The notes: a model not told the origin generated them from the letters alone. A DNA stretch of 64,000 bases from Promethearchaeota archaeon (GCA_048941625.1 JBHLNK010000004.1:1094-65093), one strand, 5' to 3'. Numbered from the stretch's first letter, positions 22,727-40,141 are shown. Program-made: numbers and translations.

Positions 22727-24670
22727 ATGAGAAATCCTGAAAATCATCGGATTGGATACTATGCTTGTCAATGAGGTGTAAATATAAGAACTAAAGTAGA
22801 CTGTGATGAGTTAGTAGATTATGTGAGTAAAAACTTTGATGATGTTGTTATTGCTAAGAAAAATGCTTTCCTATGAACTGATAATGCTCAGAATGAAATA
22901 ATTGAAGATATAAAGGAGAAAAACTTAAACAGAATAGTGGCATCAGCTTGAACTCCACGTACACATGAAGTAATTTACCGAGGAACTATTGCTAAAACAG
23001 ATTTGAATCCATACTATTTTCAAATGGTAAATGTACGTGAACATTGTTCATGGTGTACAGATACTAAGGAAGAAGCTACAAAGAAAGCAAAATCTTTAGT
23101 GAAAAGTGGAATTGAAAGGGCTAAAAGACTTGAACCCGTCCCAATTAGAACGGTTCCAGTCACTAAAGCTACATTAGTTGTTGGTGGTGGGATAGGTGGG
23201 ATGAACGCAGCTCTCGATCTTGCAAATCAAGGTATCAAGGTATATTTAGTTGACCAAAAGACAACGATTGGAGGACGAATGTCTCAATTAGACCGAACAT
23301 TTCCTACCGACGATTGTGCAATATGAATTTGCGGACCTAAAATGTTGGAAGTCAATAGAAATGAGAACATTGAGTTAATAACTTATAGTGAAGTAAAGAA
23401 AATAGAGGGATTTGTTGGAAACTATAAAGTAACAATTCAAAAAAAACCACGATTTACTACAAAAGAATGTAATGGATGTGGAGCCTGTGCCGAAGTATGT
23501 CCTGTTTATATATCAAATTATTTCGATGAATACTTAGGTGCACGGAAAGCAATAGACATTCCATTTGGTCAAGCAGTACCATTTTTATATGATATCGATA
23601 GAAAAGCATGTATTGAGTGTTTTTCATGTGTAGATGCCTGTGAACTTGATGCGATTGATTTTAGTCAATTACCTACTGATATTGAAGTTGAAGTCGGTAC
23701 AATTATTATTGCAACTGGTTGGGATATATATGAACCCTTTGGAGAATATGGATATGGAGAATTTGAAAATGTCATAACACAAGTCCAATTAGAGAGAATA
23801 CTTGCACCTAATGGTCCACTTGAGGGGCATGTTCACAGAATATCAGATAATAAAAAACCTAAAGAAATTGTATTTATACAGTGTGTAGGAAGTCGAGAAA
23901 CTGAACGAACATATTGTAGTGGTGTCTGTTGTATGCTTGCTTTAAAAAATGGAAGGTTATTACTGGAAGAGTTTCCTGATGCGAATATAACAATATGTTA
24001 CATTGATATAAGAACTCCTGAAAAAGGATTTGAGGAGTATTATGAACGCGCAAAAGAAGCAGGGATAAAGATGATTCGGGGAAAAGTAGGTGAGATCTCT
24101 GAAGATCCTGAAACTAAGAATGTAAAAGTCAGAGTTTATTCATCTTTAACAGATAAAATTGTACTAATTGATGCCGATTTAGTAGTCTTATCTACAGCAG
24201 CACTTCCTTCAGCAGGAACTCAGCAAATTGTAGATGTTTTAAATCTTGATACTAATACATATGGATTTCTTACTGAATCGCATTTTGGTTTATTACCACA
24301 AGAAACAAAGTCAAAAGGTATTTTTATAGCTGGTTTTGCTCAAGGACCAAAGAATATTTCATATTCGGTCTCTCAAGCAAGAGCAGCTGCTAGTAAAGTA
24401 GCTGAATTAACAGCTCCAGGACAAATCGATATTGAATTGATTACTGCTGAAGTAAATAGTGAATTTTGTATTTCTTGTAGACGTTGTGAAAAGGAATGTC
24501 CAAAGAATGCAATAAGGATTGAAAAAGATATTGGAGCATTTATTGACGAAATAAATTGTGATGGCTGTGGAATTTGTGCAACCTGTTGTCCTACACAGGC
24601 AATCGATATCAGATATTATAGAGACCATCAATTATTTGCTGAAATTGATGGTTTATTAGGAGGTGATTAA
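22727..24670 (+). CDS. hdrA: heterodisulfide reductase subunit A of canonical size (647 codons), with four in-frame UGA codons read as selenocysteine
   Basis: One frame is continuous from ATG 22727 to TAA 24668-24670. The only interruptions are TGA at 22772, 22874, 22949 and 23324. Each aligns to a conserved Cys of the in-window paralogues: CHCG->CQUG, YTCSAD->FLUTDN, ASCTPRTHE->SAUTPRTHE, DCAICILAPK->DCAIUICGPK. The rest carries GGGIGG FAD motifs, four CxxCxxCxxxC ferredoxin motifs and CVGSR...YCSGVCC. Confidence 0.85.
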
Positions 24671-24676
24671 AGAGAC

Positions 24677-25138
24677 ATGGAAAATACCTTTAAAATAATT
24701 GTCTTTGCTTGTTTAAAATGAGGTTATAGTGCTGCTGATTTAGCAGGAGTTTCACGATTGAAATATACATCAGCAGTAAAAATAATCAAAGTGAAATGTA
24801 CTGGTAGAGTTGATCTTAAACATATACTTTATTGCATTCGTTCGGGAGCTGATGGTGTGATGATCGTAGGTTGACGTCCTAACGAATGTCAATTCAAAAA
24901 TGGTAATTTTACAGCAGATAGACATGTGGAATTAGCAAATAGAATTTTAGCATCGAGAGGTTTCGGAGATCAGAGAATAAATATGTATTGGTTAAGTGGA
25001 GCAGAGTCAGAAAAATTTGTAAAAAGTGTAGAAGATGCATTAGAAAAAGTAAAAAATTCTGGACCAAATCCGCTTAAATTAGTAAAAAAAGAAGCTAATG
25101 TCGAAAAAAAACTAGTCATAACTACCCCTGCAGAATGA
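24677..25138 (+). CDS. vhuD: MvhD/VhuD-type subunit (hydrogenase delta-subunit family) with two in-frame UGA codons read as selenocysteine
   Basis: ATG 24677 follows a GGAGGTGA Shine-Dalgarno-like sequence. TGA at 24719 and 24872 align to Cys of the MvhD paralogues: CCNWCSYAGADLAG->ACLKUGYSAADLAG and TGCHIGDCHY->VGURPNECQF. The frame ends at TGA 25136, and the next in-frame stop is TAA 25145-25147. Confidence 0.85.
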
Positions 25139-25184
25139 CTCTTATAATAAAATTATAGTTATAAGATGACTAACCTTGCAAGGG
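25126..25184 (+). promoter_or_regulatory. candidate SECIS element (AUGA_AA_GA, eukaryote-like kink-turn layout) overlapping the vhuD 3' end
   Basis: Hand fold. Helix I pairs 25126-25133 (CCCUGCAG) with 25176-25184 (UUGCAAGGG, A25180 bulged). The core is A25135-U-G-A25138 opposite U25167-G-A25169. Helix II pairs 25140-25147 with 25159-25166 (8 bp). The apical loop UAAAAUUAUAG has an A-run on its 5' side. Confidence 0.55.
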
Positions 25185-25254
25185 AAGGGGTTTTCAAATA
25201 GTATTCAATTTAAAATAAGAATTTTAGTAAAATTTAATCCAAAAGGATGGAAAT

Positions 25255-26781
25255 ATGGTTCAAATTTCAAATAATGTAAATTTCAATAGTATATCTCCAA
25301 AAAATTTAATGGATGCAACTTATCAGGCAGTTGAAAATTTTCAGATTAGAGCCTTTTTCGAAGCAAAAGAAGAAATTTTAAAAACTGGAAAGTATAACGA
25401 AGGTGAATTTTACGATATATTAGATGCTCTAATTAATGCAGAAACAGAACGGAAATTAATATTAGAATCATTAAAAGGTAAAAAACCATCATTTTTAGAG
25501 GAAATTGTTAAAATTGTAAAAGAATTTCCAATAGAAAATGTTATCCGTGATATTATTTATCTTAAAGAACAAGGTTTTGTTGAAGAACTTATTGAAATAA
25601 AAACTAAAACAATTATAAAGAAAATAAAAGGCGAAGAGAAAGAAGTTGAAGAAAAAGAATATTATTATAGATACCAAGTCAAAGATCTGCCTGATAACTT
25701 CGTAGAACATTTTTTTGAACCAGTTTCTATTGTGTTTGATTCTGAAGTCTGCTGTCAATGTGGTTGGTGTTCATCAATTTGCCCCGTCAACGCTATAACA
25801 GTTACAGCAGACACTTTGGAGATAGATGATGAAACTTGTATGAAATGCGGTTTATGTTTTTCAGTTTGTCCAAGATCATTTTCAATTGAACAAGCAGGTA
25901 AGACTATAAATAAGCTTGATAAAAATTTAAAATTCTCAGAAAAAATAAATGGTTATATCAATACTTATTCTGCGAGTACTACAAAGGATGATATTAAAAA
26001 AGTAAGACAAGATGGCGGGATAGTAACCTCCTTGCTTGAATACTTACTTAAAAATAAAATGGTTGATGCAATTGTAGCAGTAAAACATTCGAAGGATTTA
26101 TGGAAACCTGAACCAGTTATAGTAGAAGATGTAAAAGATTTATACAAGACAAGTGGTACAAAATACGCCAATGCCTCAACTTTAAGTATTTTAGATAAAA
26201 CAAAAAAGTATGAAAGTATTGCAGTGGTGGGCGTTCCTTGTATGATGAATGCTTTAGAGAAAGGTACAATGTTACCGAGTGGACTACCCTTTTTCAAAAA
26301 CATTAAGTATCGAATAGGGCTTTTTTGTATGGAATCTTTTCCTTATACTGGTGTTCTTAGCTTAATTAATGAAAAATTTCAAAAAGATTTTAATGAAATT
26401 AAAAAAATGGATATAAGTGGAGGTAAATTTATCATATACTTAGAATCAGGTGAAGATTTAAATGTACCTTTAAATGAAGTTAAATCCTATGCACGTCATA
26501 ATTGCCATTATTGTGAAGACTTAACTGCTGATTATGCAGATATTTCTGTAGGATCAATAGGGTCTCCCAGTGGTTGGTCTACTGTAATCACGCGAAATGA
26601 AAAAGGTGAAAAGCTTTACAACGGAGTGATTAAAGCAGGTTTGATCGAATCAAAAAGCTTAGATGAAGTTAAACCTGGACAACCTTTATTAGAGAGGATT
26701 GCAGGTAGTAAAAGGAAAAATTGTAAACCAATCGAATTAAAAAAAGAACAAGAAAGGAGTGGCAACCATAACTGTAACTAA
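25255..26781 (+). CDS. FrhB/FdhB-family iron-sulfur flavoprotein with a roughly 150-aa N-terminal extension (winged-helix-like) and 2x[4Fe-4S] motifs
   Basis: CCQCGWCSSICP and CMKCGLCFSVCP, then VRQDGGIVTSLL, VVGVPCMMNAL, GLFCMESF and CHYCEDLTADYADISVGSIG. Confidence 0.75.
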   Translation: MVQISNNVNFNSISPKNLMDATYQAVENFQIRAFFEAKEEILKTGKYNEGEFYDILDALINAETERKLILESLKGKKPSFLEEIVKIVKEFPIENVIRDIIYLKEQGFVEELIEIKTKTIIKKIKGEEKEVEEKEYYYRYQVKDLPDNFVEHFFEPVSIVFDSEVCCQCGWCSSICPVNAITVTADTLEIDDETCMKCGLCFSVCPRSFSIEQAGKTINKLDKNLKFSEKINGYINTYSASTTKDDIKKVRQDGGIVTSLLEYLLKNKMVDAIVAVKHSKDLWKPEPVIVEDVKDLYKTSGTKYANASTLSILDKTKKYESIAVVGVPCMMNALEKGTMLPSGLPFFKNIKYRIGLFCMESFPYTGVLSLINEKFQKDFNEIKKMDISGGKFIIYLESGEDLNVPLNEVKSYARHNCHYCEDLTADYADISVGSIGSPSGWSTVITRNEKGEKLYNGVIKAGLIESKSLDEVKPGQPLLERIAGSKRKNCKPIELKKEQERSGNHNCN

Positions 26782-28018
26782 AAAGTTAGATAAAATAAAA
26801 TCATATTCAGATGATAAATATGAATATTTGAAAAAAATATTTGACCCTAATTTAAATAACTTATTAAAAAAATGTTATCAATGTGCACGCTGCTCAGGTG
26901 TATGCCAAATCAGTAAAGTCCAGAAATTTACACCTAGTAGAATTATACAAACAATATTAGAAGGTTTTGAAGATGAAGTAATTAAAAGCAAGGTGTTATG
27001 GGACTGTTTAATGTGTAATAGTTGCTTGCAAAATTGCCCTAAAGATATCAATTTTGCTGATATTGTTAGGATTGCGAGATATAAAATGCGGATAAAAGAC
27101 ATTCAAAATCCTGATCGTTCTATCGCCCATAAAGGCATTTATCCTTTAATGTCAGAAATGATGTGTCAAGAAAATATAAAAATTGAAAGACCTCTTGATT
27201 GGATTCCAAAAGGTTGTAAAACTTCAGACAGAGGAAATATTTTATATTATGTAGGATGTTTACCATTTTTTAATTATGAATTTCAAGATTCAATTTCTAT
27301 AGCTGAAAGCACACTAAGAATTATTTGTAATTTAGAAAACGAATCTATAGTTGTCCTTAAAGATGAGATATGTTGTGGTCATGATTTATATTGGGGTCAA
27401 GCTAAATTCGAAAGTTTTATTGATTTAGCGAAAAAAAATGTTAATATGTTTGAAAAATCAGGTATTACCAAAATCGTTACTGCATGTGCGGAATGCTATA
27501 GAACTTTTAAAATTGATTATCCTAAATTATTTGAAGATTTTAAGGAGAAATTTGAAGTCAAACATATAATTGAATATATTTATGAGAAATGGAAAGAAGG
27601 AAAAGTTCAATTTAAGAATCCCGTTGAATTTAATGAGACTATTCCTTTTACTTATCACGATCCTTGTAGGCTCAGCAGATTTTTACCTAAAGATAATAAA
27701 ATAGTTGAAATTGTCAGAGAGATTTTCAAATATTTGAAAGTTATTGGTTACAGTTTTAAAGAAATGGAACATAGTAAAGGGAATTCCTATTGTTGTGGAG
27801 TAAATTCATGGATGAATTGTAATGAGCGATCTAAAGCTTTACGATACAAACGTCTTTTAGAAGCTAAAGCTGTTGGTACAAAAATGATTACATCATGCCC
27901 AAAATGCCGAATGCATTTAAAATGCATACAAAAGGATTATGAAGATTTTTCTTCTATTGAAATTTTAGATTTTTCAGAATTTATGGTAAATTTAATAGAA
28001 ATAAAAAAGCAAAATTAA
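26759..28018 (+). CDS. HdrC-HdrB fusion (HdrD-like) iron-sulfur protein with two CCG domains
   Basis: CYQCARCSGVC and CLMCNSCLQNCP (HdrC-like), then CCGHDLYWG, CAECY, DPCRLSR, CCGVNSW and SCPKC (HdrB-type CCG motifs). The GTG start overlaps the upstream gene by 23 nt. Confidence 0.8.
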   Translation: MATITVTKKLDKIKSYSDDKYEYLKKIFDPNLNNLLKKCYQCARCSGVCQISKVQKFTPSRIIQTILEGFEDEVIKSKVLWDCLMCNSCLQNCPKDINFADIVRIARYKMRIKDIQNPDRSIAHKGIYPLMSEMMCQENIKIERPLDWIPKGCKTSDRGNILYYVGCLPFFNYEFQDSISIAESTLRIICNLENESIVVLKDEICCGHDLYWGQAKFESFIDLAKKNVNMFEKSGITKIVTACAECYRTFKIDYPKLFEDFKEKFEVKHIIEYIYEKWKEGKVQFKNPVEFNETIPFTYHDPCRLSRFLPKDNKIVEIVREIFKYLKVIGYSFKEMEHSKGNSYCCGVNSWMNCNERSKALRYKRLLEAKAVGTKMITSCPKCRMHLKCIQKDYEDFSSIEILDFSEFMVNLIEIKKQN

Positions 28019-28034
28019 TGATTGAGGAGAGCAA

Positions 28035-31000: not shown

Positions 31001-31076
31001 TTCAACAATAGTTATAAAGCATTTTGGTTTTGAGCAAATACACGCTATGATTTCTGCCCTATTAGTTCAAACTTAA
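28035..31076 (+). CDS. hdrA: giant fused HdrA-like flavoprotein (1013 aa): thioredoxin-reductase-like module + ferredoxin, HdrA N-terminal-type Cys domain, second FAD module, C-terminal ferredoxin
   Basis: VIGGGIAGIQ, DCAICILAPK, CTGCGLCAQQCP, CIGCGICKGIC, CIGSRD...YCSSVCC, ICHCGINIGG, YTCSAD, ASCTPRTHE, DQCSWVH, IIGGGVAGM, CIGCGSCMEVC and CKGCGTCGAQCP. Confidence 0.85.
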   Translation: MKKVGAVLVIGGGIAGIQTSIDLADSGYKVYLAESTTSIGGVMSQLDKTFPTNDCAICILAPKLVQTGRHENIEILIGSSIEKIEGAPGNFKVYLTQKSLRLDQNKCTGCGLCAQQCPIEAIDFFNEKLSNKAAISVKFPQAVPLVFSINDKKCIGCGICKGICKAKAIDYELQDKLVNLNVGAVVLAIGFDEYDPTPLTELGYGKNLNVITSIEFERILSASGPHSGLIIRPSDGIIPKKIAFLQCIGSRDRKRRIDYCSSVCCMYTTKEAVIAKEHMNIIEPTIFTMDVRAYGKDFDKYIERAKEEYGVRYIRRRISSIKEIPDSKDLKVNYETKNGKIIEEIFNLVVLSVGMRPNQKAKDIAQKLNIELNEYGFCKTETFTPVETSRPGIYVCGAFATPKDIPETVIEASAAAGRVNVLLSEARNMLITKKELPEEIDVSDQPPRIGVFICHCGINIGGVVDVPSVVEYVKTLPNVVYAEHNLYTCSADTQTNIKEKIEKNHLNRVIVASCTPRTHESLFQATIREVGLNKYLFEMVNIRDQCSWVHMHEPEKATAKSKDLLRMSVAKASQLIPLKEQEISVIDKGLIIGGGVAGMSAALNLASQGYEIFLIEKEDSLGGFAKNIYQTLENDDVQNYLETLIERVKNNQSIHVFTNAGINSISGYIGNFSTDINYGNTNKNLNLEHGIIIVATGAKEYQPTEYNFGKDKRIITQAEFEKNLFTTENVKELKSIVMIQCIGSRNEEHLYCSRICCSEAIKNALKAKEMNPDIEIIILYRDIRTYGFKEKFYNLARDKGVIFLRFEESKPPELKIKNKQLKLISNNPDLGNLEINPDLIVLSTGLEAPKNENEELAKMLKVPLNEDKFFLEAHVKLRPIDFATDGIYLCGTAHSPKDLRESIAQANGAAAQAVKILSAEKLVTSGLVAVVIEENCIGCGSCMEVCQFNAIELIEEERTFEDLTMIMRKSHVNPALCKGCGTCGAQCPNSTIVIKHFGFEQIHAMISALLVQT

Positions 31077-31526: not shown

Positions 31527-31545
31527 AAATAATTTTTACATGAAT

Positions 31546-31559: not shown

Positions 31560-31996
31560 CCTTAAATTGTAAAAATCTCAATATTTATATTTTTTTTATT
31601 AAGTAATAATTCTAATTTAATTTATCCACTATAATGTCATTTTTTTTTCCATTCTTTGCATAAATTTAATGATGTTTGATCGATATTGTTATATTTCAAT
31701 TTAAAATTGCTAGAAATATATCACTAAAAAAGAAATTATTACTAATATCCAATATAATGTAATTTATTGATAATCATAAAAAATTACATTTATCATATTC
31801 TTCATCTCAAATGAGAAAAATGTTTCAATCAGTATATAAAATCCAAAAATACTAACAAAAACGAACAAAAAGCCCAAAAAAGCTAATAATAATATAATAT
31901 TATGACTGATTACGAAAAACTGACTCTAATAAAAGTTTGGGACTGATCACAACCAAAGCAAAAAGTGTCGGATTCTGATCATTTTTCATAAAAATA

Positions 31997-32004
31997 TTTA
32001 TATA
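31997..32004 (+). promoter_or_regulatory. candidate TATA box for the second hdrA cluster
   Basis: TTTATATA (the same octamer as at 22681) lies 73-80 nt upstream of ATG 32077. Weak evidence in AT-rich DNA. Confidence 0.2.
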
Positions 32005-32076
32005 ATTACATATCTTTATTTTTTAATCAACTAAGTTTTTGAGTAAATTATTCAATAACAATTTAAAATGGGTTAA

Positions 32077-35000
32077 ATGATGGAAGGATTTGTTTTGGTT
32101 ATTGGTGGTGGAATTGCTGGGATACAAGCTTCTTTAGATTTAACAGATTTAGGATTTAAAGTATATTTAGTAGAAAAAACACCTTCAATTGGGGGAAGAA
32201 TGGCGCAGTTAGATAAAACATTCCCCACTAATGATTGTAGTTTATGTATTCTTGCTCCAAAAATGGTTGAGGTGTTTAGAAATCCTAATATTGAATTAAT
32301 GACTTATCATGAGGTTAAAAAAGTATCTGGTAAGAAAGGAAATTTTATGGTTACAGTTCTTAAGAACCCTCGTTATATTGATGAAAAAAAATGTAAGGGA
32401 TGTGGTGATTGTGCTGCGAGATGTCCTAAGATTGAATTTCCTAACATATTTGATATGAATTTGGGTAAAAGAAAATCAGTTTACATTCCGTTTCCTCAAG
32501 CTGTTCCGCCTGTATACTTAATTGATTCAAATTTATGTTTAAAGCTAACCAAAGGAGTATGTGGGGTTTGTGAAAAAGTTTGTAAGGCAGAAGCGATAAA
32601 TTTTGAACAAAAACCTAAAGAAATTAATATTAATGTTGGTGCAATTGTAGTTGCTACTGGTTTTGATACTTTAGGAGAAGAATTAACTTCAAGATGGGGT
32701 TATAGATTTGATAATGTAGTAAGTGCTCTTGAATATGAACGGATTTTATCCGCATCAGGACCATTTGAAGGTCATATTTTACGACCTAGTGATAGAAAAG
32801 AGCCAGAAAAGATCGCATTTATTCAATGTGCAGGATCTAGGGATTTACGTGAAGGAATCCCTTATTGTTCCTCAGTATGTTGTATGTATACTGCGAAAGA
32901 AGCAATTATAACAAAAGAACATTCAGAAAACTCAAAGTGTTTTGTATTTCGGCATGACGTAAGAGCATATGGGAAAAATTTTTTTGAATACACTCAGAGA
33001 GCTCAAGAGGAATATGGAGTAATATATTTCCAAACTAAAATTAGCAGAATAATTGAAGATCCGGAAACAAATGATTTAGTGATACATTATGAAGATCTAA
33101 AAACGGGCGAATTTAAGGATTTTAAGGCAAATTTAGTAGTATTAGCAGCCCCTCTTGTACCTTCAGCTGGAACTATAGAACTAGCAAAGATTTTAGGAAT
33201 CAAATTAGATGAATATAATTTCTTTAAAGAGAAATCATATTTTGATAAAGCTTTATCTTCAAAGGAAGGTATTTTTTTAGCTGGTTTCTGTCAAGGTCCA
33301 ATGGATATACCCGAAACAGTAGCTGATTCAAGTGGTGTGGCTTCTCAAGTTGCAAGTTTACTTAGCAACTATAAGTTTACTGAAACAAAAGAAAAAGCTA
33401 TAAGAATACCAGAAAAGGAGGTAAAGCAATCAGATGAAGCAAGAATAGGCGTTCTCATATGTCATTGTGGAATTAATATTGGTAAATATATAGACATTCC
33501 TAAGGTTATTGAACAGATAAAAAAATTGCCAAATGTTGTATTTTGTGAAGATAATTTGTACTCCTGTAGTTCTGATTCACAAGAAAGAATTAAAGAAGTA
33601 ATATCGGAATATAATTTAAATAGATTTATTGTGGCTTCTTGTACACCGCGTACGCATGAACAATTATTCCAAGAAACCTGTCAAGAAGCAGGTTTAAATA
33701 AATATTTATTTGAAATGGTGAACATCAGAGACCAATGCTCATGGGTACATATGACAGAGAAGGAGCTTGCTACGGAAAAAGCAATTGATTTAATCAGAAT
33801 GGGGATAGCAAAATCAAGATTATTAAAATCGCAAGAAGAAAAAACATTGAAAATCACACAGACTGCGATGATAATTGGAGGAGGTATATCCGGAATGACA
33901 GCAGCATTGAATATAGCTAGTCAAGGATTTAAAGTGTATCTAATAGAAAAAGAGCAAAATTTAGGTGGAAATTTAAAATACTTAAATATGCTATTTCCTA
34001 CTCAAGAGGATGCTTCAATCTTGCTAAATGAAACAATAGAACAAGTAATAAATAATAATAACATTCAAATCTTTTTAAAATCTAATATAAAAGAAATTAA
34101 AGGGTATATTGGGAATTATGACGCTTCAATCATCGATTCAGAAAAGGTTAGCCATGAATTGAAAATTGGAACTATAATTGTTGCCACAGGTGGAAAAGAA
34201 TTAAAGCCTAATGAATTTTTTAATTATACATACACAAATCATAATGTGATTACGCAGCTACAATTAGAACAGAAACTAAAAGATGAAGATCAATCGTGGC
34301 TGGACAAACTTAATCATATAACGACACTTCTATGTGTTAACGCTAGACAAGAAAATGGGATTACCTATTGTTCGAACATTTGTTGTGAAACAGCGATAAA
34401 AAATATAAATATCCTAAAGGAAATAAAACATGATCTCAAGTTGATAGTTCTTTATAGAGATCTTCAGATGGCAAAAAAAGAATTTGAAAGATATTATCGT
34501 GAACGAAGAAAAGACGCCGTTTTCTTGAGATACGACTTAGATCACCCTCCTATCATTACAGAATCAAATGGAGAAAAAGAAAAATTTGAAATTGATGTAT
34601 TTGATACCAATCTTCAGGAAAATATTAACTTCAACACAGACTTAATAGTACTCTCAACACCAATGGTTCCAGCAGACAATTTGAATGAATTAGCACAAAA
34701 ACTTAAAGTTCCTCTAGATAAAAATGGATTCTTTTTAGAAGCTCATGTAAAATTACGACCATTAGATTTTGCGACAGATGGAATCTTCCTATGTGGATGT
34801 GCTCATTGGCCAAAAAATGTTCAAGATTCCATATCACAAGCAAATGGCGCTGCGGGTAGAGCATGCAGATTTTTAAGTGCTGGGGAGATTACAACATCTG
34901 GATTAATAGCAGAGGTAGATCCAGAGATTTGCATAGGATGTGGGACATGTGAGGAAGCTTGTTCATATAATGCAATAGAAATTACAAACTTTGTAAAAGA

Positions 35001-35160
35001 TTTTGAAGAAGTAAGTCTACCGATTAAAAAATCTACAATAAATTCGGGATTATGTAAAGGTTGTGGTACTTGTGCTGTTAATTGTCCAGTTGGGGCAATT
35101 TCTATAAAACATTATGATTTTGAGCAAATTAATGCAATGATTAAGACACTTGCTCTATAA
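32077..35160 (+). CDS. hdrA: giant fused HdrA-like flavoprotein (1027 aa). The start may be the second ATG at 32080.
   Basis: Same motif order as 28035-31076: VIGGGIAGIQ, DCSLCILAPK, CHCGINIGK, YSCSSD, ASCTPRTHE, DQCSWVH, IIGGGISGM, CIGCGTCEEAC and CKGCGTCAVNCP. A close paralogue of 36592-39696. Confidence 0.85.
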   Translation: MMEGFVLVIGGGIAGIQASLDLTDLGFKVYLVEKTPSIGGRMAQLDKTFPTNDCSLCILAPKMVEVFRNPNIELMTYHEVKKVSGKKGNFMVTVLKNPRYIDEKKCKGCGDCAARCPKIEFPNIFDMNLGKRKSVYIPFPQAVPPVYLIDSNLCLKLTKGVCGVCEKVCKAEAINFEQKPKEININVGAIVVATGFDTLGEELTSRWGYRFDNVVSALEYERILSASGPFEGHILRPSDRKEPEKIAFIQCAGSRDLREGIPYCSSVCCMYTAKEAIITKEHSENSKCFVFRHDVRAYGKNFFEYTQRAQEEYGVIYFQTKISRIIEDPETNDLVIHYEDLKTGEFKDFKANLVVLAAPLVPSAGTIELAKILGIKLDEYNFFKEKSYFDKALSSKEGIFLAGFCQGPMDIPETVADSSGVASQVASLLSNYKFTETKEKAIRIPEKEVKQSDEARIGVLICHCGINIGKYIDIPKVIEQIKKLPNVVFCEDNLYSCSSDSQERIKEVISEYNLNRFIVASCTPRTHEQLFQETCQEAGLNKYLFEMVNIRDQCSWVHMTEKELATEKAIDLIRMGIAKSRLLKSQEEKTLKITQTAMIIGGGISGMTAALNIASQGFKVYLIEKEQNLGGNLKYLNMLFPTQEDASILLNETIEQVINNNNIQIFLKSNIKEIKGYIGNYDASIIDSEKVSHELKIGTIIVATGGKELKPNEFFNYTYTNHNVITQLQLEQKLKDEDQSWLDKLNHITTLLCVNARQENGITYCSNICCETAIKNINILKEIKHDLKLIVLYRDLQMAKKEFERYYRERRKDAVFLRYDLDHPPIITESNGEKEKFEIDVFDTNLQENINFNTDLIVLSTPMVPADNLNELAQKLKVPLDKNGFFLEAHVKLRPLDFATDGIFLCGCAHWPKNVQDSISQANGAAGRACRFLSAGEITTSGLIAEVDPEICIGCGTCEEACSYNAIEITNFVKDFEEVSLPIKKSTINSGLCKGCGTCAVNCPVGAISIKHYDFEQINAMIKTLAL

Positions 35161-35311: not shown

Positions 35312-36592
35312 GTGAAGAATATTACTGAAACGACAAAAGTGGATGATTCTGAAGAACTAAAGGAAAATAATGATTCTTATCTCAGTAAAATTTATGAACC
35401 AAATATAAGGAAATTGTTATACAGATGCTATCAATGTGTTCGTTGTAGTGGTGTCTGTCAACTTAGTAAAGTTCAGACTTTCGAACCTAGTAAGATAATT
35501 CAATTGATTTTAGAGGGATTTGAAGATAAAGTTATTGAGAGTGGTATTTTATGGGATTGCTTAACTTGCAATGCTTGTCTTCAAAATTGTCCAGAGGGTA
35601 TAAATTTTGCAGATATAGTAAGAATAGTTAAATATAAAATGCGTAAATCCCACAATCAATCCCCAGATGATTATATTGCTCATAAAGGAATATATACTAC
35701 TATATCAGAAATAATGAGTGAACCTCAAATAAAACCAGAAAGATCTCTAGATTGGGTTCCCAAAGACTGTAAAATTGCTGACGAAGGAGATATTTTGTAT
35801 TATGTGGGATGTCTACCTTATTTTAATTTCGAATTCAATAATTCAGAAACTATAGCTGAAAGTACTTTGAAAATTCTTTGTCAAATTGAAAAAGAACCGA
35901 TTGTTGTTCTTAAAGATGAGATATGCTGTGGACATGATCTGTACTGGGGCCAAGGGAAATTTGATGCTTTTATCAATTTAGCAAAAAAAAATGTTAAAAG
36001 ACTTGAAAAAACAAGAGCTAAAACTATCGTGACTGCCTGTGCTGAATGCTATAGAACGTTGAAAGTCGATTATCCCAATTTATTTGATGATTTCAAACGA
36101 AAATTCAATGTTAAACATTTAATTGAATATATTTATGAAAAATGGAAGGAAGGAAAAATTGAATTCAAGAATCCAAATCAGGGAGAACTAAAGATCCCTT
36201 TTACATATCATGACCCCTGTAGATTAAGCAGGTTTTTACCTAAAGATAGTAATATAATTGAAAATGTTCGCGAGATTTTTAATCATTTAAAAACATTAGG
36301 TTATCAATTTAATGAAATGGTTCATAGTAAGACAGATGCCTTATGTTGTGGAGTTAATTCTTGGATGAATTGCAATGATCGGTCAAAAGCGTTAAGATAT
36401 AAAAGACTTCTAGAGGCAAAAGATGTAGGAGAAATAATGGTCACCTCATGTCCTAAATGTAAAATGCATTTATCCTGTTTACAAAATGATTACGAAGACA
36501 TTTCTTCAATTGAAATTGTAGATTTTTCTGAATTTTTAGTAGGATTCATCCTTATCGTAGATTCAAATAACAAAGGGGTGAGTGAAGGATAA
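35312..36592 (+). CDS. HdrC-HdrB fusion (HdrD-like) iron-sulfur protein, paralogue of 26759-28018
   Basis: CYQCVRCSGVC, CLTCNACLQNCP, CCGHDLYWG, DPCRLSR and CCGVNSW. Its stop overlaps the next ATG (TAATG). Confidence 0.8.
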   Translation: MKNITETTKVDDSEELKENNDSYLSKIYEPNIRKLLYRCYQCVRCSGVCQLSKVQTFEPSKIIQLILEGFEDKVIESGILWDCLTCNACLQNCPEGINFADIVRIVKYKMRKSHNQSPDDYIAHKGIYTTISEIMSEPQIKPERSLDWVPKDCKIADEGDILYYVGCLPYFNFEFNNSETIAESTLKILCQIEKEPIVVLKDEICCGHDLYWGQGKFDAFINLAKKNVKRLEKTRAKTIVTACAECYRTLKVDYPNLFDDFKRKFNVKHLIEYIYEKWKEGKIEFKNPNQGELKIPFTYHDPCRLSRFLPKDSNIIENVREIFNHLKTLGYQFNEMVHSKTDALCCGVNSWMNCNDRSKALRYKRLLEAKDVGEIMVTSCPKCKMHLSCLQNDYEDISSIEIVDFSEFLVGFILIVDSNNKGVSEG

Positions 36593-39500
36593 TGGAAGGG
36601 TCAGTGCTCGTTATTGGAGGAGGTATAGCTGGAATTCAAATTTCTCTTGATCTTACAGAATTAGGATTTAAAGTTTATTTGGTAGAAAAGTCGCCTTCAA
36701 TTGGAGGTAGAATGGCTCAATTGGATAAAACCTTTCCAACTTTAGATTGTTCACTATGTATATTAGCTCCTAAGATGGTAGAGGTATTTCGTAATCCAAA
36801 TGTAGAATTAATGACCTATCATGAAGTATTGAAAATAGATGGTAAACCAGGAAATTTTACAGCAAAAATCCTAAAAAAACCCCGATATATAGATGAAACA
36901 AAATGTAAGGGATGCGGAGAGTGTAGTGCTAAGTGTCCTAAAATTATGGCTCCTAATCCTTTTGAAATGAATATTGGAAAAAGAAAGTCTGTTTATATTC
37001 CTTTTCCTCAAGCAGTGCCCCCAATTTATTTAATTGACCCGGAAATGTGCTTGTATTTAACCAAAGGAGTATGTCAAATTTGTAAAAAAGCATGTCCTGC
37101 TGAAGCTATTGACTTTGAGCAAAAACCAGAAGAATTTGAAATAAAAATTGGTGCTGTTGTAGTTGCCACTGGCTTTGAAATGCCCGTTGAACAATTATCT
37201 TCAAGATGGGGTTACAGATTTGAGAATGTAGTAAGTGCTCTTGAATATGAAAGAATATTATGTGCCTCTGGACCATTTGGTGGTCATGTCAAACGTCTAA
37301 GTGATGAAGAAGAACCTGAAGTAATTGCTTTTGTTCAATGTGCTGGTTCCAGAGATCTTCACGAAAATGTACCCTTTTGTTCAAGTGTTTGTTGTACTTA
37401 TACTGCAAAGCAAGCTATAATTACTCAAGAACACTCTGATAGATCTGAATGCTACGTATTTCGACATGATATAAGGGCATATGGTAAAAATTTCTATGAG
37501 TTTACACAAAGAGCTCAGGAAGAATATGGAGTGAAATACTTTCAATCAAAAATAAGTGTTATTGAAGAAGAACCACAAACAAAGGATCTAATTATTCATT
37601 ATGAGGATTTAAAAACTGGAGAATTCAAAGACTTTCGTGCCAATTTGGTGGTTTTAGCCTCTCCTTTAGTGCCATCCAAAGGGGTTAGAGAGTTAGGAAG
37701 TTCTCTTGGAATTGAATTAGATAAATATGATTTTTTTAAAGAAAAATCTTATTTTGATAAACTAAAGTCTTCTAGAGATGGAATATATCTATGTGGATTT
37801 TGTCAAGGTCCGATGGATATTCCAGAAACTGTTGCAGATGCTAGCGGAGTAGCTGCTCAAATTGCTGATTTATTAAATTCTGTTAAATTTACACAGATGA
37901 AGGAGAAAAAATTTGATGTACCAGAGAAAGAAATTAAGATCACAGATGAGCCAAGAATAGGTGTTATGGTATGCCATTGCGGTATTAATATTGGTAATTA
38001 TGTTGATGTTCCTAGAGTTGTGGAATATGTCAAAAAATTACCAAATGTTGTAGTATGTGAAGCTAATCTTTATTCTTGTTCTTCTGATTCTCAAATAAGA
38101 ATTAAGGAATTAATTGATGAATATAATTTAAATCGATTTATTGTAGCATCCTGTACCCCTAGAACTCATGAATCTTTATTTCAAGAAACATGCCAAGAAG
38201 GTGGTCTGAATAAATATCTTTTTGAGCTTGTAAATATTCGAGATCAATGCTCCTGGGTTCATATGACTGAAAAAGTGGCGGCAACAGAAAAAGCAATTGA
38301 TTTAATTAGAATGCATGTAGCCAAATCAAAATTGTTAAAACCCCAGAGAGAAGATAAAATTGATATTACACATACTGCACTAGTCATTGGTGGAGGTATT
38401 TCTGGTATTACAGCTGCTCTTAATACAGCAAATCAAGGATTTAAAACAATTCTAGTTGAAAAAGAAAATGAATTAGGAGGAAATTTGAGATATCTAAATG
38501 TATTATATCCTGTCCATAAAAACGCTTTAGAGTTACTAAATGAATTAAACGAAAGAGTTGATAAAAATAATAATATTCAGGTTTTTCTAAATGCAGCAGT
38601 TAAAGATATCAGAGGGTATGTAGGGAATTATAATGTTATAATAAACGATTCAGACAATAATGCTCATGAGTTAAAGATTGGTACTATTATAGTAGCCACA
38701 GGAGGTCAAGAGTTTAAACCAATAGGTCTTTTTGGCTATGATGGAAAAAATAAGAATGTTATAACTCAATTGGAGTTAGAAAAGCAATTGCAGAATAAGG
38801 ATAATAAATGGTTAGATAATATTAATCGTGTAACGGTCATTTTATGTGTGAATGCAAGACAAAATGAAGGTATAACATATTGTTCTAACATTTGTTGTGC
38901 GACTTCACTGAAAAATGTAAGAATACTAAAAGAATTAAAACCTGAGTTAGAAATTATAGTAATCTACAGAGATTTACAAATGGCTAAAAAAGAATTTGAG
39001 GAGTATTACCGTGAACGACGGAAAGATGCGATATTTCTCAGGTATGATTTAGATAGTCTTCCAGAAGTAAAAAAAAAGAAAGGGATTGATAAGTTTCAAA
39101 TCACAGTTTTTGATACTAATTTAAAAGATACCATTGAGTATGAGACTGATTTAGTTATCCTATCGACACCTATGATTCCTGCAGATAACTTAAAAGAATT
39201 AGCAATGATGCTAAAAGTTCCTTTAGATAAAAATGGTTTCTTTTTGGAAGCTCATGTTAAACTACGCCCATTAGATTTTGCGACAGATGGAATATTTCTA
39301 TGTGGTTGTGCACAATGGCCAAAAAATATACAAGATTCAATTGCACAAGCGAATGGTGCATCAGGAAGATCAAGTAGATTCCTTAGTGCTGATAAGATTA
39401 CTACTTCAGGTTTAGTAGCGGAAGTATCAGAAGATAAATGTATTGGATGTGGTGAGTGCGAAGAAGTATGTCCTTACAAAGCAATAACGCTTGTAGAAAT

Positions 39501-39696
39501 TGATAAAGAATTCGAAGATATTAGCATTAAGGTAAAAAAATCTAATATTAACGCTGCTGTTTGTAAAGGATGTGGTACGTGTGCTGCAACATGTAAAGTC
39601 GGAGCTATTATGGTTAAACATTACGATTTTGATCAGATTTCTACGATGATTGATTCATATTTACTAGAAAAGGAGGAAATTAAGAACGGTTTATAG
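36592..39696 (+). CDS. hdrA: giant fused HdrA-like flavoprotein (1034 aa)
   Basis: Colinear with 32077-35160 over its full length: MEGSVLVIGGGIAGIQ..., CHCGINIGN, ASCTPRTHE, CIGCGECEEVCP and CKGCGTCAATC. Confidence 0.85.
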   Translation: MEGSVLVIGGGIAGIQISLDLTELGFKVYLVEKSPSIGGRMAQLDKTFPTLDCSLCILAPKMVEVFRNPNVELMTYHEVLKIDGKPGNFTAKILKKPRYIDETKCKGCGECSAKCPKIMAPNPFEMNIGKRKSVYIPFPQAVPPIYLIDPEMCLYLTKGVCQICKKACPAEAIDFEQKPEEFEIKIGAVVVATGFEMPVEQLSSRWGYRFENVVSALEYERILCASGPFGGHVKRLSDEEEPEVIAFVQCAGSRDLHENVPFCSSVCCTYTAKQAIITQEHSDRSECYVFRHDIRAYGKNFYEFTQRAQEEYGVKYFQSKISVIEEEPQTKDLIIHYEDLKTGEFKDFRANLVVLASPLVPSKGVRELGSSLGIELDKYDFFKEKSYFDKLKSSRDGIYLCGFCQGPMDIPETVADASGVAAQIADLLNSVKFTQMKEKKFDVPEKEIKITDEPRIGVMVCHCGINIGNYVDVPRVVEYVKKLPNVVVCEANLYSCSSDSQIRIKELIDEYNLNRFIVASCTPRTHESLFQETCQEGGLNKYLFELVNIRDQCSWVHMTEKVAATEKAIDLIRMHVAKSKLLKPQREDKIDITHTALVIGGGISGITAALNTANQGFKTILVEKENELGGNLRYLNVLYPVHKNALELLNELNERVDKNNNIQVFLNAAVKDIRGYVGNYNVIINDSDNNAHELKIGTIIVATGGQEFKPIGLFGYDGKNKNVITQLELEKQLQNKDNKWLDNINRVTVILCVNARQNEGITYCSNICCATSLKNVRILKELKPELEIIVIYRDLQMAKKEFEEYYRERRKDAIFLRYDLDSLPEVKKKKGIDKFQITVFDTNLKDTIEYETDLVILSTPMIPADNLKELAMMLKVPLDKNGFFLEAHVKLRPLDFATDGIFLCGCAQWPKNIQDSIAQANGASGRSSRFLSADKITTSGLVAEVSEDKCIGCGECEEVCPYKAITLVEIDKEFEDISIKVKKSNINAAVCKGCGTCAATCKVGAIMVKHYDFDQISTMIDSYLLEKEEIKNGL

Positions 39697-39706
39697 GTGA
39701 TTGATC

Positions 39707-40141
39707 ATGTCAAAATCAAAGAAAAAATTAGATAAGAAAGAATTTGAACCGAAGATATTAGTTTTTTGTTGTAATTGGTGTAGTTACGCTGGAGCAGATC
39801 TAGCAGGAGTTTCACGATTTCAATATCCTCCAAACATCAGGATTATACGAGTAATGTGTTCAGGACGCGTCGATCCTTCATTTGTGTTAAAGGCTCTTAA
39901 AAATGGTGCTGATGGTGTTCTCGTCAGTGGGTGTCATATTGGTGATTGTCATTATATAACCGGAAATGAATATACTCAAGAAAGATTCGAGAGATTGCAT
40001 AATATCTTAATTAAACAATTGGGAATTGATCCAAGAAGAGTAAGGTTAGAATGGGTGAGTGCTTCTGAAGGAAAAAGATTTGCTGAAGTAATTACAGAAT
40101 TTACTAAGACTATTAAAGAATTAGGTCCATTTAAAGAATGA
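39707..40141 (+). CDS. mvhD: MvhD-type subunit, all-Cys version. The start is placed at the ATG matching the paralogue N-terminus MSKSKKK.
   Basis: VFCCNWCSYAGADLAGVSRFQYP, MCSGRVDP and SGCHIGDCHY, with an AGGTGA Shine-Dalgarno-like sequence at 39695-39700. Confidence 0.85.
   Translation: MSKSKKKLDKKEFEPKILVFCCNWCSYAGADLAGVSRFQYPPNIRIIRVMCSGRVDPSFVLKALKNGADGVLVSGCHIGDCHYITGNEYTQERFERLHNILIKQLGIDPRRVRLEWVSASEGKRFAEVITEFTKTIKELGPFKE

What the first reader, a model, noticed from the sequence alone, without database searches (positions are those of the whole stretch)
22727..40141. 17-kb Hdr/Mvh-type supercluster with one canonical Sec-HdrA, three giant fused Cys-HdrA, three MvhD-type subunits, two HdrCB fusions and an FrhB-like entry module, but no hydrogenase catalytic subunit
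All eleven genes are on the + strand in two blocks, 22727-31526 and 32077-40141. The only canonical-size HdrA (N-domain, FAD module, ferredoxins) is the Sec version. The Cys versions (1013-1034 aa) have a rearranged, duplicated order: FAD module + ferredoxin, N-type Cys domain, second FAD module, ferredoxin. This is therefore not a simple Sec/Cys isoenzyme pair as with Vhu/Vhc in Methanococcus. MvhD normally wires HdrA to the MvhAG hydrogenase, and no MvhA/G is present here. The only candidate electron-input subunit is the FrhB-like protein (25255-26781). F420H2-dependent Hdr complexes are known in Methanosarcinales, and an LLM-type (often F420-dependent) oxidoreductase also lies in this window. 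This suggests a hydrogenase-independent, flavin-based electron-bifurcating module with an unknown disulfide or alternative substrate. Blocks 32077-35160 and 36592-39696 are close paralogues, indicating recent duplication.
Basis: partly seen in the sequence, partly recalled or inferred. Interest (0 to 1): 0.6.

Follow-up and report, generated by a model that had tools for sequence, protein, structure and literature searches.

The report
Hydrogenase-free Hdr gene cluster, Lokiarchaeon
An uncultured Lokiarchaeon (Asgard archaeon) carries a conserved block of ten genes for electron-splitting iron-sulfur flavoenzymes, probably fed by the cofactor F420 rather than by hydrogen; every part type is already known, but this combination has apparently not been described.

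Summary
There are ten + strand genes, not eleven. They form two or three transcription units.

Unit 1:
- hdrA with four in-frame UGA codons
- vhuD with two UGA codons, followed by a shared lokiSECIS
- a long frhB
- hdrCB, double-hdrA and mvhD

Units 2/3:
- double-hdrA alone
- hdrCB, double-hdrA and mvhD

No hydrogenase gene lies on this 72-kb contig. [NiFe] hydrogenases sit elsewhere in the genome, beside their own HdrA-MvhD fusions. F420 biosynthesis genes (cofH, cofD, cofE) are present. mcrA and comA are absent.

The 'rearranged' giant HdrA is not peculiar to this cluster. It is collinear with BamE of class II benzoyl-CoA reductase, whose structure shows a fused HdrA pseudo-dimer, and the type is widespread in archaea and bacteria. 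Unlike BamD, the HdrCB here keeps all ten CCG cysteines. The MvhDs are short.

The HdrA(Sec)-VhuD-FrhB trio is adjacent in 15 of 17 congeners that hold the FrhB orthologue. A paralogous trio also occurs as a stand-alone unit. The AA2/AA3 duplication (72% identity) predates the divergence of several congeners, so it is not recent.

Best reading: F420-linked, hydrogenase-independent flavin-based bifurcation between ferredoxin and an unknown disulfide. This is a new variant of a known kind, of moderate interest.

The parts
22727..24670 (+). hdrA, canonical four-domain HdrA (647 aa) with four Sec codons (UGA at codons 16, 50, 75, 200)
   Evidence: Open frame with TGA=U. Full-length match to solved HdrA 9sfi_A (E 4.5e-199), which carries X at the codon-200 position. 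The TGA positions are conserved in nine orthologues. In one search, 14 of the 17 orthologues of 80% identity or more in congeners carry 4 TGA.
24677..25138 (+). vhuD-like MvhD adaptor with two Sec codons (17 and 68 of the frame from 24671); ends on a UGA that is part of the SECIS AUGA core
   Evidence: PF02662 E 3.4e-41. Translation. TGA positions conserved.
25125..25190 (+). lokiSECIS-like hairpin shared by hdrA and vhuD. AUGA at 25135-25138, 8-bp upper stem (25140-25147 pairing with 25159-25166), 11-nt loop, UGA at 25167-25169, lower CCCC/GGGG helix.
   Evidence: Alignment of nine orthologous regions and RNAalifold: 17 pairs, 2 of them with compensatory changes. The layout matches that described in PMC4989117. 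No Rfam hit.
25255..26781 (+). frhB-like subunit (508 aa): about 150-aa N-terminal extension (weakly winged-helix-like), 2x[4Fe-4S] ferredoxin domain, FrhB_FdhB_N and _C domains. Candidate F420H2 entry or exit site.
   Evidence: PF04422 and PF04432. NF006807 scores 275.3 bits against a cut-off of 269. Best solved relatives are F420 enzymes, FrhB 3zfs_C at 205 bits. Synteny. N-extension model pLDDT 69 with weak winged-helix matches.
26759..28018 (+). hdrCB1, HdrC-like 2x[4Fe-4S] domain fused to two complete CCG (HdrB-like) domains; its start overlaps the frhB end by 23 nt
   Evidence: Fer4_8 plus two CCG stretches. All ten CCG cysteines are present, unlike the BamD-like proteins.
28035..31076 (+). 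hdrAA1, BamE-type double HdrA (1013 aa), from the second ancient subfamily
   Evidence: Domain map. 48% identical to AA2/AA3. Tree. Collinear with Geobacter BamE; Cys pair and Lys conserved.
31095..31526 (+). mvhD2, short all-Cys MvhD adaptor (143 aa)
   Evidence: PF02662 E 2.8e-53.
31527..32076 (.). Intergenic gap with several oligo-T runs after mvhD2 and TATA-like boxes before hdrAA2; likely operon boundary
   Evidence: Sequence read directly. Congeners carry 1.6-4.9 kb of unrelated genes at this place.
32077..35160 (+). hdrAA2, BamE-type double HdrA (1027 aa), probably monocistronic
   Evidence: A 151-nt gap with a T-run follows. G005 has a 2.7-kb insert after its orthologue.
35312..36592 (+). 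hdrCB2 (426 aa), 68% identical to hdrCB1, with two complete CCG motifs
36592..39696 (+). hdrAA3, BamE-type double HdrA (1034 aa), 72% identical to AA2
39701..40141 (+). mvhD3, short all-Cys MvhD adaptor (146 aa), 72% identical to mvhD2
   Evidence: PF02662 E 2.4e-58. Identity.

Best explanation
The region encodes hydrogenase-independent, HdrA-type flavin-based electron-bifurcating (or confurcating) enzymes of a Lokiarchaeon. It is built from two known modules placed side by side and then partly duplicated.

Module 1 is the trio HdrA (4 Sec), VhuD (2 Sec) and a long FrhB. All six UGA codons are served by one lokiSECIS just after vhuD.

Module 2 is the triad HdrCB, double HdrA and MvhD. The double HdrA is a BamE-type fused pseudo-dimer with:
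- one Cys-x2-Cys pair and one inserted ferredoxin in the first half;
- one N-domain cluster and one C-terminal ferredoxin in the second half.

Inferred electron path:
1. F420H2 is oxidised at the FrhB flavin.
2. Electrons pass through the FrhB Fe-S clusters to the [2Fe-2S] of VhuD/MvhD.
3. They enter HdrA or HdrAA through the C-terminal ferredoxin domain and reach the bifurcating FAD (the first TrxR domain in HdrAA, Lys274 in AA2).
4. The high-potential electron goes through the TrxR cluster to HdrCB. Its two intact CCG motifs should hold two non-cubane clusters and reduce an unknown disulfide.
5. The low-potential electron goes through the N-domain cluster and inserted ferredoxin domain to ferredoxin.

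The reaction may run in reverse.

Shown: gene content, Sec codons, SECIS, domain order, conserved ligands, synteny, absence of a local hydrogenase, presence of cof genes.

Inferred: F420 as substrate, subunit contacts, the disulfide, the direction.
For: - Domains and families.
- Four plus two conserved UGA codons at Cys positions, tRNA-Sec and a SECIS with compensatory pairs.
- FrhB passes the NF006807 cut-off, and its best solved relatives are all F420 enzymes.
- cofH, cofD and cofE score above their cut-offs.
- The FrhB orthologue lies about 600 nt downstream of the 4-Sec HdrA in 15 of 17 congeners that hold it.
- A paralogous HdrA(2 Sec)-VhuD-FrhB(503 aa) trio stands alone between unrelated genes in three congeners.
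- FrhB-family subunits (FdhB) occur in the same solved entries as HdrA (7bkb, 8rvu).
- The double HdrA is collinear with Geobacter BamE, with Cys59/Cys62 and Lys280 conserved. The BamE structure shows TrxR1 as the bifurcating site (bioRxiv 10.64898/2026.04.10.717634).
- HdrCB keeps all ten CCG cysteines.
- No [NiFe] large subunit on the contig.
- Lokiarchaeal HdrABC and frhB transcripts were seen without MvhADG in sediments: bioRxiv 10.1101/826495.
Against: - There is no biochemical or transcript evidence for this locus. Only DNA runs were found.
- FrhB misses the frhB equivalog cut-off (243 against 331.5 bits). F420 binding was not checked residue by residue.
- The canonical HdrA and the double HdrA share a single HdrCB in unit 1, and the stand-alone trio has no CCG protein beside it. 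The high-potential branch of the trio is therefore unclear.
- Units 2/3 have no input module of their own.
- MvhD could still dock the hydrogenases encoded elsewhere.
- No disulfide substrate is known in Lokiarchaeia.
Confidence: 0.55

Rival explanations
1. The MvhD/VhuD adaptors of this cluster dock the Mvh-type [NiFe] hydrogenases encoded elsewhere in the genome. The enzymes would then be H2-dependent, or H2-evolving and confurcating, Mvh:Hdr complexes as in methanogens, with FrhB as an accessory.
For: - Three MvhD-family genes are present.
- The genome has [NiFe] large and small subunit pairs on C61 and C115 and a fragment on C20.
- Lokiarchaeal VhuU, VhuA and VhuG are reported in PMC4989117.
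Against: - Both hydrogenase loci carry their own HdrA-MvhD fusion directly upstream.
- No hydrogenase gene lies on the 72-kb contig.
- The six congener clusters that were fetched and mapped show only Hdr, MvhD and FrhB genes within each block, and unrelated genes in the gaps between blocks.
- The conserved neighbour is FrhB.
Confidence: 0.15
2. The HdrCB, double-HdrA and MvhD triads work like BamDEF of class II benzoyl-CoA reductase. They would deliver very low-potential electrons directly to a bound reductase, for example an AOR-family tungsten enzyme. The high-potential electron would go to an ETF-like protein rather than to a disulfide.
For: - The double HdrA is about 47% identical to and collinear with Geobacter BamE, with the Cys pair and Lys280 conserved.
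- The BamDEF mechanism is described.
- The genome has an AOR-family gene next to Hdr-like fusions on C88.
Against: - HdrCB keeps the CxxC that BamD-like proteins have lost, and is only 27-29% identical to them.
- The MvhDs are short (143-146 aa), unlike the long BamF.
- No BamB, BamC, BamG, BamH or BamI homologue lies in the window.
Confidence: 0.12
3. The FrhB-like protein does not use F420. It is a ferredoxin- or other flavin-dependent member of the family (as HCAR is), or a purely Fe-S electron wire. The true donor or acceptor would then be something else, such as NAD(P)H through an unlinked partner, or ferredoxin only.
For: - It misses the frhB equivalog cut-off.
- It has a unique N-terminal extension with no Pfam match.
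- The family includes non-F420 enzymes, for example 5dqr.
Against: - The top solved matches (150-205 bits) are all F420 enzymes, against 30 bits for HCAR.
- The subfamily cut-off is met.
- The cof genes are present.
Confidence: 0.12

Closest known systems
BamD-BamE-BamF module of class II benzoyl-CoA reductase (Geobacter metallireducens; cryo-EM, bioRxiv 10.64898/2026.04.10.717634)
   Same: - Gene triad in the same order: HdrCB-like, double HdrA of about 1020 aa, MvhD-like.
- The double HdrA is collinear (TrxR1 plus inserted ferredoxin, N-domain, TrxR2, C-terminal ferredoxin), with the Cys59/Cys62 pair and Lys280 conserved and about 47% identity.
   Different: - HdrCB here keeps all ten CCG cysteines, while BamD-like proteins lose the first CxxC.
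- The MvhDs are short, not the long BamF.
- The Gln768 position is E/T/T.
- There are no BamBC (AOR) or BamGHI (NADH/ferredoxin) genes; the neighbour is FrhB plus a canonical Sec-HdrA/VhuD pair.
FrhB/FdhB-containing HdrA-MvhD clusters without hydrogenase in ANME-1, ANME-2d and Methanosarcinales (Chadwick et al. 2022, PMC9012536)
   Same: - HdrA paralogues, fused double HdrA with complementary N-domain and Cys197, MvhD and an FrhB-family gene, with no MvhAG.
- F420-linked bifurcation or confurcation has been proposed for them.
- Methanoperedens, ANME-2 and Methanosarcina double HdrAs fall in the same clade as AA2/AA3.
- The Methanoperedens and Methanosarcina loci also have an FrhB-like neighbour.
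   Different: - The host is a non-methane-cycling Asgard archaeon without mcrA or comA.
- HdrC and HdrB are fused.
- A multi-Sec canonical HdrA/VhuD pair lies in the same operon.
- The paper describes the fused HdrA3/4 with the N-domain half first; here the Cys197-bearing half comes first.
Lokiarchaeal multi-Sec HdrA-VhuD gene pairs with a shared lokiSECIS (Mariotti et al. 2016, PMC4989117; PMC11227280)
   Same: HdrA with several Sec including the canonical position, VhuD with two Sec immediately downstream, and one eukaryote-like SECIS after VhuD whose AUGA can overlap the stop codon.
   Different: In the passages read, those papers do not describe the downstream FrhB, HdrCB and double-HdrA genes or their conservation.
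MvhADG-HdrABC and FdhAB-MvhD-HdrABC complexes of methanogens (PDB 5odc, 7bkb, 8rvu, 9sfi)
   Same: - The canonical HdrA here matches full-length at E 1e-193 to 5e-199.
- It has an MvhD adaptor.
- An FrhB-family subunit (FdhB) is part of the solved Fdh-Hdr complexes.
   Different: - No MvhA/G or FdhA is present.
- HdrB and HdrC are fused.
- There is no CoM/CoB metabolism.
- There are three extra Sec in the N-domain.
HdrA2B2C2 of Methanosarcina acetivorans (F420H2-dependent bifurcating heterodisulfide reductase; cited in PMC8498797)
   Same: It is an F420H2-driven HdrA-type bifurcation to ferredoxin and a disulfide. The NCBIfam HdrA2 model is the best hit of all four HdrA proteins here.
   Different: - HdrA2 is an HdrA-MvhD fusion said to oxidise F420H2 itself, without an FrhB subunit.
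- All scores here are below the HdrA2 cut-off of 1100 bits (768-998 bits).

Membership tests
Canonical HdrA (as in PDB 5odc/9sfi) | Four domains in order: N-terminal Cys-cluster domain, TrxR/FAD domain with the Cys197 position, inserted 2x[4Fe-4S] ferredoxin, C-terminal 2x[4Fe-4S] ferredoxin | tested here: met
   Residues 7-645 align to 9sfi_A residues 4-651 at 666 bits. Sec replaces Cys at codons 16, 50, 75 and 200.
Canonical HdrA (as in PDB 5odc/9sfi) | NCBIfam equivalog score cut-off (NF041778 at 1400 bits; NF040770 HdrA2 at 1100 bits) | tested here: not met
   605 and 768 bits. These models are 771-777 positions long and include an MvhD-like tail that is a separate gene here.
MvhD/VhuD adaptor (PF02662 FlpD) | Full-length FlpD domain; for VhuD, two Sec at the Cys positions near the [2Fe-2S] site | tested here: met
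   E 3e-41 to 2e-58 for the three proteins. U17 and U68 align to Cys of the all-Cys copies and are conserved in nine orthologues. The VhuD equivalog cut-off of 215 bits is not reached (155 bits).
FrhB/FdhB/FpoF family (F420-binding subunit) | FrhB_FdhB_N plus FrhB_FdhB_C domains above curated cut-offs | tested here: met
   PF04422 79.6 bits and PF04432 144.3 bits. NF006807 subfamily 275.3 bits against 269.
FrhB/FdhB/FpoF family (F420-binding subunit) | Orthology to hydrogenase FrhB (TIGR03289 equivalog) and adjacency to FrhA/FrhG | tested here: not met
   243 bits against a cut-off of 331.5. No [NiFe] large subunit on the contig.
FrhB/FdhB/FpoF family (F420-binding subunit) | The organism makes F420 | tested here: met
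   cofH 460 bits, cofD 317 bits and cofE 257 bits, all above their cut-offs. This shows genes only; the cofactor was not measured.
FrhB/FdhB/FpoF family (F420-binding subunit) | F420 actually bound and oxidised | not testable with these tools
   Needs the protein.
HdrB/HdrC (or HdrD) heterodisulfide reductase catalytic unit | HdrC-type 2x[4Fe-4S] motifs plus two CCG motifs with five Cys each (ligands of two non-cubane clusters) | tested here: met
   Fer4_8 plus two CCG stretches. All ten Cys are present in CB1 and CB2.
HdrB/HdrC (or HdrD) heterodisulfide reductase catalytic unit | CoM-S-S-CoB as substrate (the organism has Mcr and CoM biosynthesis) | tested here: not met
   No PF02249 (mcrA) and no PF02679 (comA) match in the 96%-complete genome. 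HdrB and HdrC equivalog scores are far below their cut-offs.
BamDEF module of class II benzoyl-CoA reductase | BamE: fused double HdrA with permuted domain order, Cys59/Cys62 pair and Lys280 at the bifurcating FAD | tested here: met
   The Geobacter locus L043 ORF has C59, C62, K280 and Q768 at exactly the published numbers. AA1-3 align collinearly and keep the Cys pair and the Lys.
BamDEF module of class II benzoyl-CoA reductase | BamD with degenerate distal non-cubane cluster; long BamF with extra domains; BamBC and BamGHI partners | tested here: not met
   The CxxC of CCG motif 1 is intact here but lost in BamD-like proteins. The MvhDs are 143-146 aa. No AOR-type or NuoEFG-type gene is in the cluster.
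Mvh:Hdr hydrogenase complex | mvhA and mvhG adjacent to or co-transcribed with mvhD/hdrA | tested here: not met
   PF00374 matches occur only on C115, C61 and C20, none on C169. Those loci have their own HdrA-MvhD fusions.
lokiSECIS (eukaryote-like SECIS of Lokiarchaeia) | AUGA...GA core, stem of about 9 bp, 11-nt A-rich apical loop, located just after vhuD, none after hdrA | tested here: met
   8-bp stem with 2 compensatory pairs, an 11-nt A-rich loop in this window (10-12 nt among the nine orthologues), and an AUGA overlapping the vhuD stop. The description is in PMC4989117.

The most novel reading that the evidence does not exclude
Unit 1 may encode a single two-stage supercomplex. A canonical, selenium-rich HdrA/VhuD/FrhB bifurcation module and a BamE-type double-HdrA module would be wired in series and share one HdrCB. 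F420H2 electrons would be split twice, to reach an acceptor below the ferredoxin potential or to drive an as yet unknown Asgard-specific thiol/disulfide cycle. This would be an archaeal counterpart of the 'coupled bifurcation modules' just described for class II benzoyl-CoA reductase. The tandem amplification to up to four double HdrAs in congeners would then tune the output branches.
Probability: 0.1. Interest if true: 0.75.

Novelty: new variant of a known kind. Interest (0 to 1): 0.42.

Why it matters
Models of Asgard energy metabolism, and of the syntrophy behind eukaryogenesis, lean on 'MvhADG-HdrABC' as the hydrogen-handling, electron-bifurcating core.

This analysis shows that the largest and best-conserved Hdr cluster of one Lokiarchaeal genus has no hydrogenase. 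It is built around an F420-type entry subunit, a six-selenocysteine HdrA/VhuD pair and BamE-type double HdrAs with an apparently intact disulfide-reducing subunit.

If the F420 link holds, part of Lokiarchaeal redox balancing runs F420-ferredoxin-disulfide rather than H2-ferredoxin-disulfide. The unknown disulfide then becomes a defined target.

The locus also gives a natural comparison set for the newly solved BamE structure: the same core, but a different high-potential subunit, adaptor and input.

Tried and rejected
- Rfam at gathering thresholds over the whole window found nothing; the SECIS is not in Rfam in this form.
- A search for RNA-seq runs found only sediment or soil DNA metagenomes.
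- Reading TGA as something other than Sec (code 4 or 25, or a true stop with split genes) was rejected. All six TGA codons align to conserved Cys, are conserved in orthologues, and are accompanied by a tRNA-Sec and a SECIS.
- Pfam on the FrhB N-terminal 165 aa gave no family. An AlphaFold model from four sequences was mediocre: pLDDT 69, with the other four models at 40-49. Foldseek gave only weak winged-helix matches (best E 0.02). This is recorded as a hint only.
- The Gln768 'non-bifurcating FAD' marker of BamE is E/T/T here. A Lys sits five residues after the CC motif in both halves. Sequence alone cannot say whether the second FAD is inactive.
- 'Recent duplication' was rejected on identity and on the tree.
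- The idea that blocks 1 and 2 form one operon was rejected on the variable inserts in congeners.
- The double HdrA was not folded, because the tool returns no coordinates with which to measure cofactor-ligand distances.

Full report
**What is there**

Between 22727 and 40141 the + strand carries ten genes, not eleven. With TGA read as Sec, 22727-24670 is one open 647-codon frame with TGA at codons 16, 50, 75 and 200. The frame from 24671 (ATG at 24677) to 25138 is an MvhD-family protein with TGA at positions 17 and 68 of that frame, and it ends on a third TGA.

Pfam and NCBIfam confirm the following:
- a canonical HdrA;
- three FlpD/MvhD proteins;
- one FrhB-family protein, with a ferredoxin domain and a roughly 150-aa N-terminal extension;
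- two HdrC-like plus 2xCCG fusions;
- three proteins of 1013-1034 aa, each with two FAD/TrxR modules.

Against the canonical HdrA, each giant protein consists of two parts:
- HdrA residues about 148-566: TrxR plus inserted ferredoxin, including the DCxxC motif of the Cys197 position;
- then HdrA residues 1-238 plus 310-644: N-domain, a second TrxR without the inserted ferredoxin and without the Cys motif, and the C-terminal ferredoxin.

**Organism and genome**

The window lies on a 72-kb contig of a 3.65-Mb, 29% GC MAG (96% complete, 8% contaminated). Its nearest relatives in public genomes are Promethearchaeota (Lokiarchaeia) MAGs at 71-76% identity for the double HdrA.

Genome-wide checks:
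- A tRNA-Sec is present.
- [NiFe] hydrogenase large subunits occur only on C61, C115 and C20. On C61 and C115 they sit next to a small subunit and an HdrA-MvhD fusion of their own. C61 also has an FrhB-like gene.
- cofH (with a cofG-like neighbour), cofD and cofE all score above their curated cut-offs. This agrees with published statements that Lokiarchaeota encode F420 biosynthesis (PMC8498797).
- mcrA and comA are absent.
- The genome holds about 17 HdrA-like and 14 MvhD-like ORFs. Five of them are further canonical HdrAs, with 0-3 TGA codons. The all-Cys copy on C55 follows separate hdrC and hdrB genes.

**Selenium decoding**

All six UGA codons align to conserved Cys in the paralogues and are conserved in nine orthologues. 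In one search, 14 of the 17 HdrA orthologues of 80% identity or more in congeners have four TGA, one has five and two have three.

A hairpin lies at 25125-25190. It has an AUGA that overlaps the vhuD stop, an 8-bp stem, an 11-nt A-rich loop and a closing UGA. It is conserved, with two compensatory pairs. This is the arrangement described for Lokiarchaeal HdrA-VhuD pairs (PMC4989117; PMC11227280). This part is therefore already known.

**Conservation and history**

The cluster is a stable feature of the genus. The FrhB orthologue (75-87% identity) lies about 600 nt downstream of the 4-Sec HdrA, on the same strand, in 15 of 17 congeners that hold it. The other two cases are contig breaks.

The composition varies between genomes:

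| Genomes | Layout |
|---|---|
| G006 (a complete chromosome), L006, L008 | Seven genes: A-D-FrhB-FrhB2-CB-AA-D |
| G002, G007, G015 | Thirteen genes, four of them double HdrAs |
| G003 | As this window, but with FrhB2 |
| G005 and this window | No FrhB2 |

The space between block 1 and block 2 holds unrelated, variable genes in congeners. G005 has a 2.7-kb insert between AA2 and CB2. In this window the 550-nt gap has oligo-T runs and TATA-like boxes. I therefore read three units: hdrA to mvhD2; hdrAA2; and hdrCB2-hdrAA3-mvhD3.

A tree of 106 double HdrAs splits them into two old subfamilies:
- AA2, AA3 and the congeners' extra copy arose by duplication within the Lokiarchaeal lineage. Their clade is archaeal and also holds Methanosarcina, Methanoperedens, ANME-2, Thor-, Sif- and Helarchaeota.
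- AA1 groups with two other copies of this genome (C90, C2), next to an Archaeoglobi sequence and among bacterial sequences.

AA2 and AA3 are 72% identical. Each has 85-90% orthologues in congeners, so the duplication is not recent.

A paralogous trio, HdrA(2 Sec)-VhuD-FrhB(503 aa, 38-40% identity, N-extension retained), stands alone between ribosomal-protein and other unrelated genes in three congeners. The trio is thus a module in its own right.

**Comparison with known systems**

The triad HdrCB-like, double HdrA and MvhD recurs across archaea and many anaerobic bacteria. In Geobacter and relatives it is BamD-BamE-BamF of class II benzoyl-CoA reductase.

A 2026 cryo-EM preprint (bioRxiv 10.64898/2026.04.10.717634) describes:
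- BamE as a fused HdrA dimer with domain permutation. TrxR1 carries the bifurcating FAD (Lys280). TrxR2 carries a structural FAD (Gln768). A Cys59-Cys62 pair lies on the low-potential path.
- BamD as an HdrBC-like subunit with a degenerate distal cluster that passes electrons to an ETF.
- BamF as a long MvhD with Sec19.

The Geobacter ORF in locus L043 has C59, C62, K280 and Q768 at exactly those numbers. AA1-3 align collinearly with it and keep the Cys pair and the Lys. The Gln768 position is E/T/T.

The Loki HdrCBs differ from BamD. They are only 27-29% identical to BamD-like proteins, and they retain the CxxC of the first CCG motif that BamD-like proteins have lost. The MvhDs here are short.

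Three further points of prior knowledge apply:
- Fused double HdrAs with complementary N-domain and Cys197 were noted in ANME and Moorella (PMC9012536).
- Multiple double HdrAs were noted in Loki- and Thorarchaeota (PMC11237513).
- FrhB/FdhB-HdrA clusters without hydrogenase were discussed for ANME-1 and ANME-2d.

FdhB, an FrhB-family subunit, is part of solved Fdh-MvhD-Hdr complexes: entries 7bkb and 8rvu appear in both searches.

**Mechanism**

Shown:
- the parts and their conserved ligands;
- the synteny;
- the absence of a local hydrogenase;
- the presence of cof genes.

Inferred, in order:
1. F420H2 is oxidised at FrhB.
2. Electrons pass through VhuD/MvhD into the C-terminal ferredoxin domain of HdrA or HdrAA, and on to the bifurcating FAD.
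3. One branch leads through HdrCB to an unknown disulfide.
4. The other leads through the N-domain cluster and inserted ferredoxin to ferredoxin.
5. The reaction may be reversible.

By analogy with BamE, the double HdrA is a single-lane pseudo-dimer with one complete path.

Open points:
- which high-potential partner the stand-alone trio uses;
- what feeds units 2/3;
- the identity of the disulfide.

**Rivals**

The rival explanations are:
- docking of the trans-encoded hydrogenases;
- a BamDEF-like direct coupling to a bound reductase with an ETF acceptor;
- an FrhB that does not use F420.

Each is given with its evidence in its own section. None is excluded; each is less well supported than the main reading.

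**Verdict**

Several of its specifics need correction.

All component types are already described. What appears undescribed in the papers I could read is the conserved joining of three things in one Lokiarchaeal genus:
- the multi-Sec HdrA/VhuD/long-FrhB trio;
- a BamE-type triad that has an intact HdrB-like site;
- the tandem amplification of that triad.

No experiment bears on function. I rate it a new variant of a known kind, of moderate interest.

Noticed in passing
window 25255-25734: The first ~150 residues of the cluster's FrhB have no Pfam match. They are conserved in orthologues and in the paralogous trio's FrhB, but absent from the short FrhB2 and other FrhB-like genes. A mediocre AlphaFold model (pLDDT 69) gives helix-turn-helix plus a long beta hairpin, with weak winged-helix matches. 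This may be a docking domain, as the wHTH of BamF is.
   Followed up: partly
G000:C55:18209-27808 (same genome, other contig): A locus with three DsrE/F/H-like small genes and separate hdrC and hdrB. It continues with an all-Cys HdrA, an MvhD, a 425-aa Cys-rich protein, an 826-aa FrhB-GltD-like fusion and a TusA-like gene. It looks like a sulfur-relay-linked canonical HdrABC.
   Followed up: no
G000:C88:77407-90269 (same genome, other contig): HdrA (2 TGA) and VhuD (2 TGA) lie near an AOR-family gene (656 aa), a 4-hydroxybutyryl-CoA dehydratase-like gene and a 930-aa HdrC-GltD-HdrB-like fusion. An AOR enzyme close to Hdr parts recalls BamB.
   Followed up: no
G000:C61:4244-10120 and G000:C115:2785-6607: Both [NiFe] hydrogenase loci are preceded by an HdrA-MvhD fusion. 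The C61 fusion (859 aa) starts with an ArsR-like winged-helix segment and is preceded by a 375-aa FrhB-like gene.
   Followed up: partly
L086 (G007:C7) 11498-12292; also G002, G015; own genome C2:65075-65842 and C90:25536-26303: Some double HdrAs are followed by a long MvhD-like protein of 256-279 aa instead of the short 143-146-aa form. This may be a BamF-like long adaptor.
   Followed up: no
window 41223-41519 (+) and 41788-42591 (-): Just downstream of the cluster lie a ThiS/Urm1-like small protein and a ThiF-family E1-like enzyme. Together they form a ubiquitin-like or sulfur-carrier pair.
   Followed up: no
window 10038-11531 (-): A second FrhB-like protein (498 aa, 30% identical to the cluster's FrhB) with a C-terminal extension sits next to a Rag-like GTPase gene.
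   Followed up: no
L090/L091 (G005:C1), between the AA2 and CB2 orthologues: A 2.7-kb insert splits the second block in one congener. It holds a membrane protein and a PIN-like plus small antitoxin-like gene pair.
   Followed up: no
window 22772-22951 and 23324: U16, U50 and U75 fall on the conserved Cys positions of the HdrA N-domain. U200 is the canonical Sec position, in the DDCAIU motif that corresponds to the Cys pair seen as a redox-active disulfide in BamE. VhuD U17 corresponds to BamF Sec19. All Sec therefore lie on the proposed electron path.
   Followed up: partly
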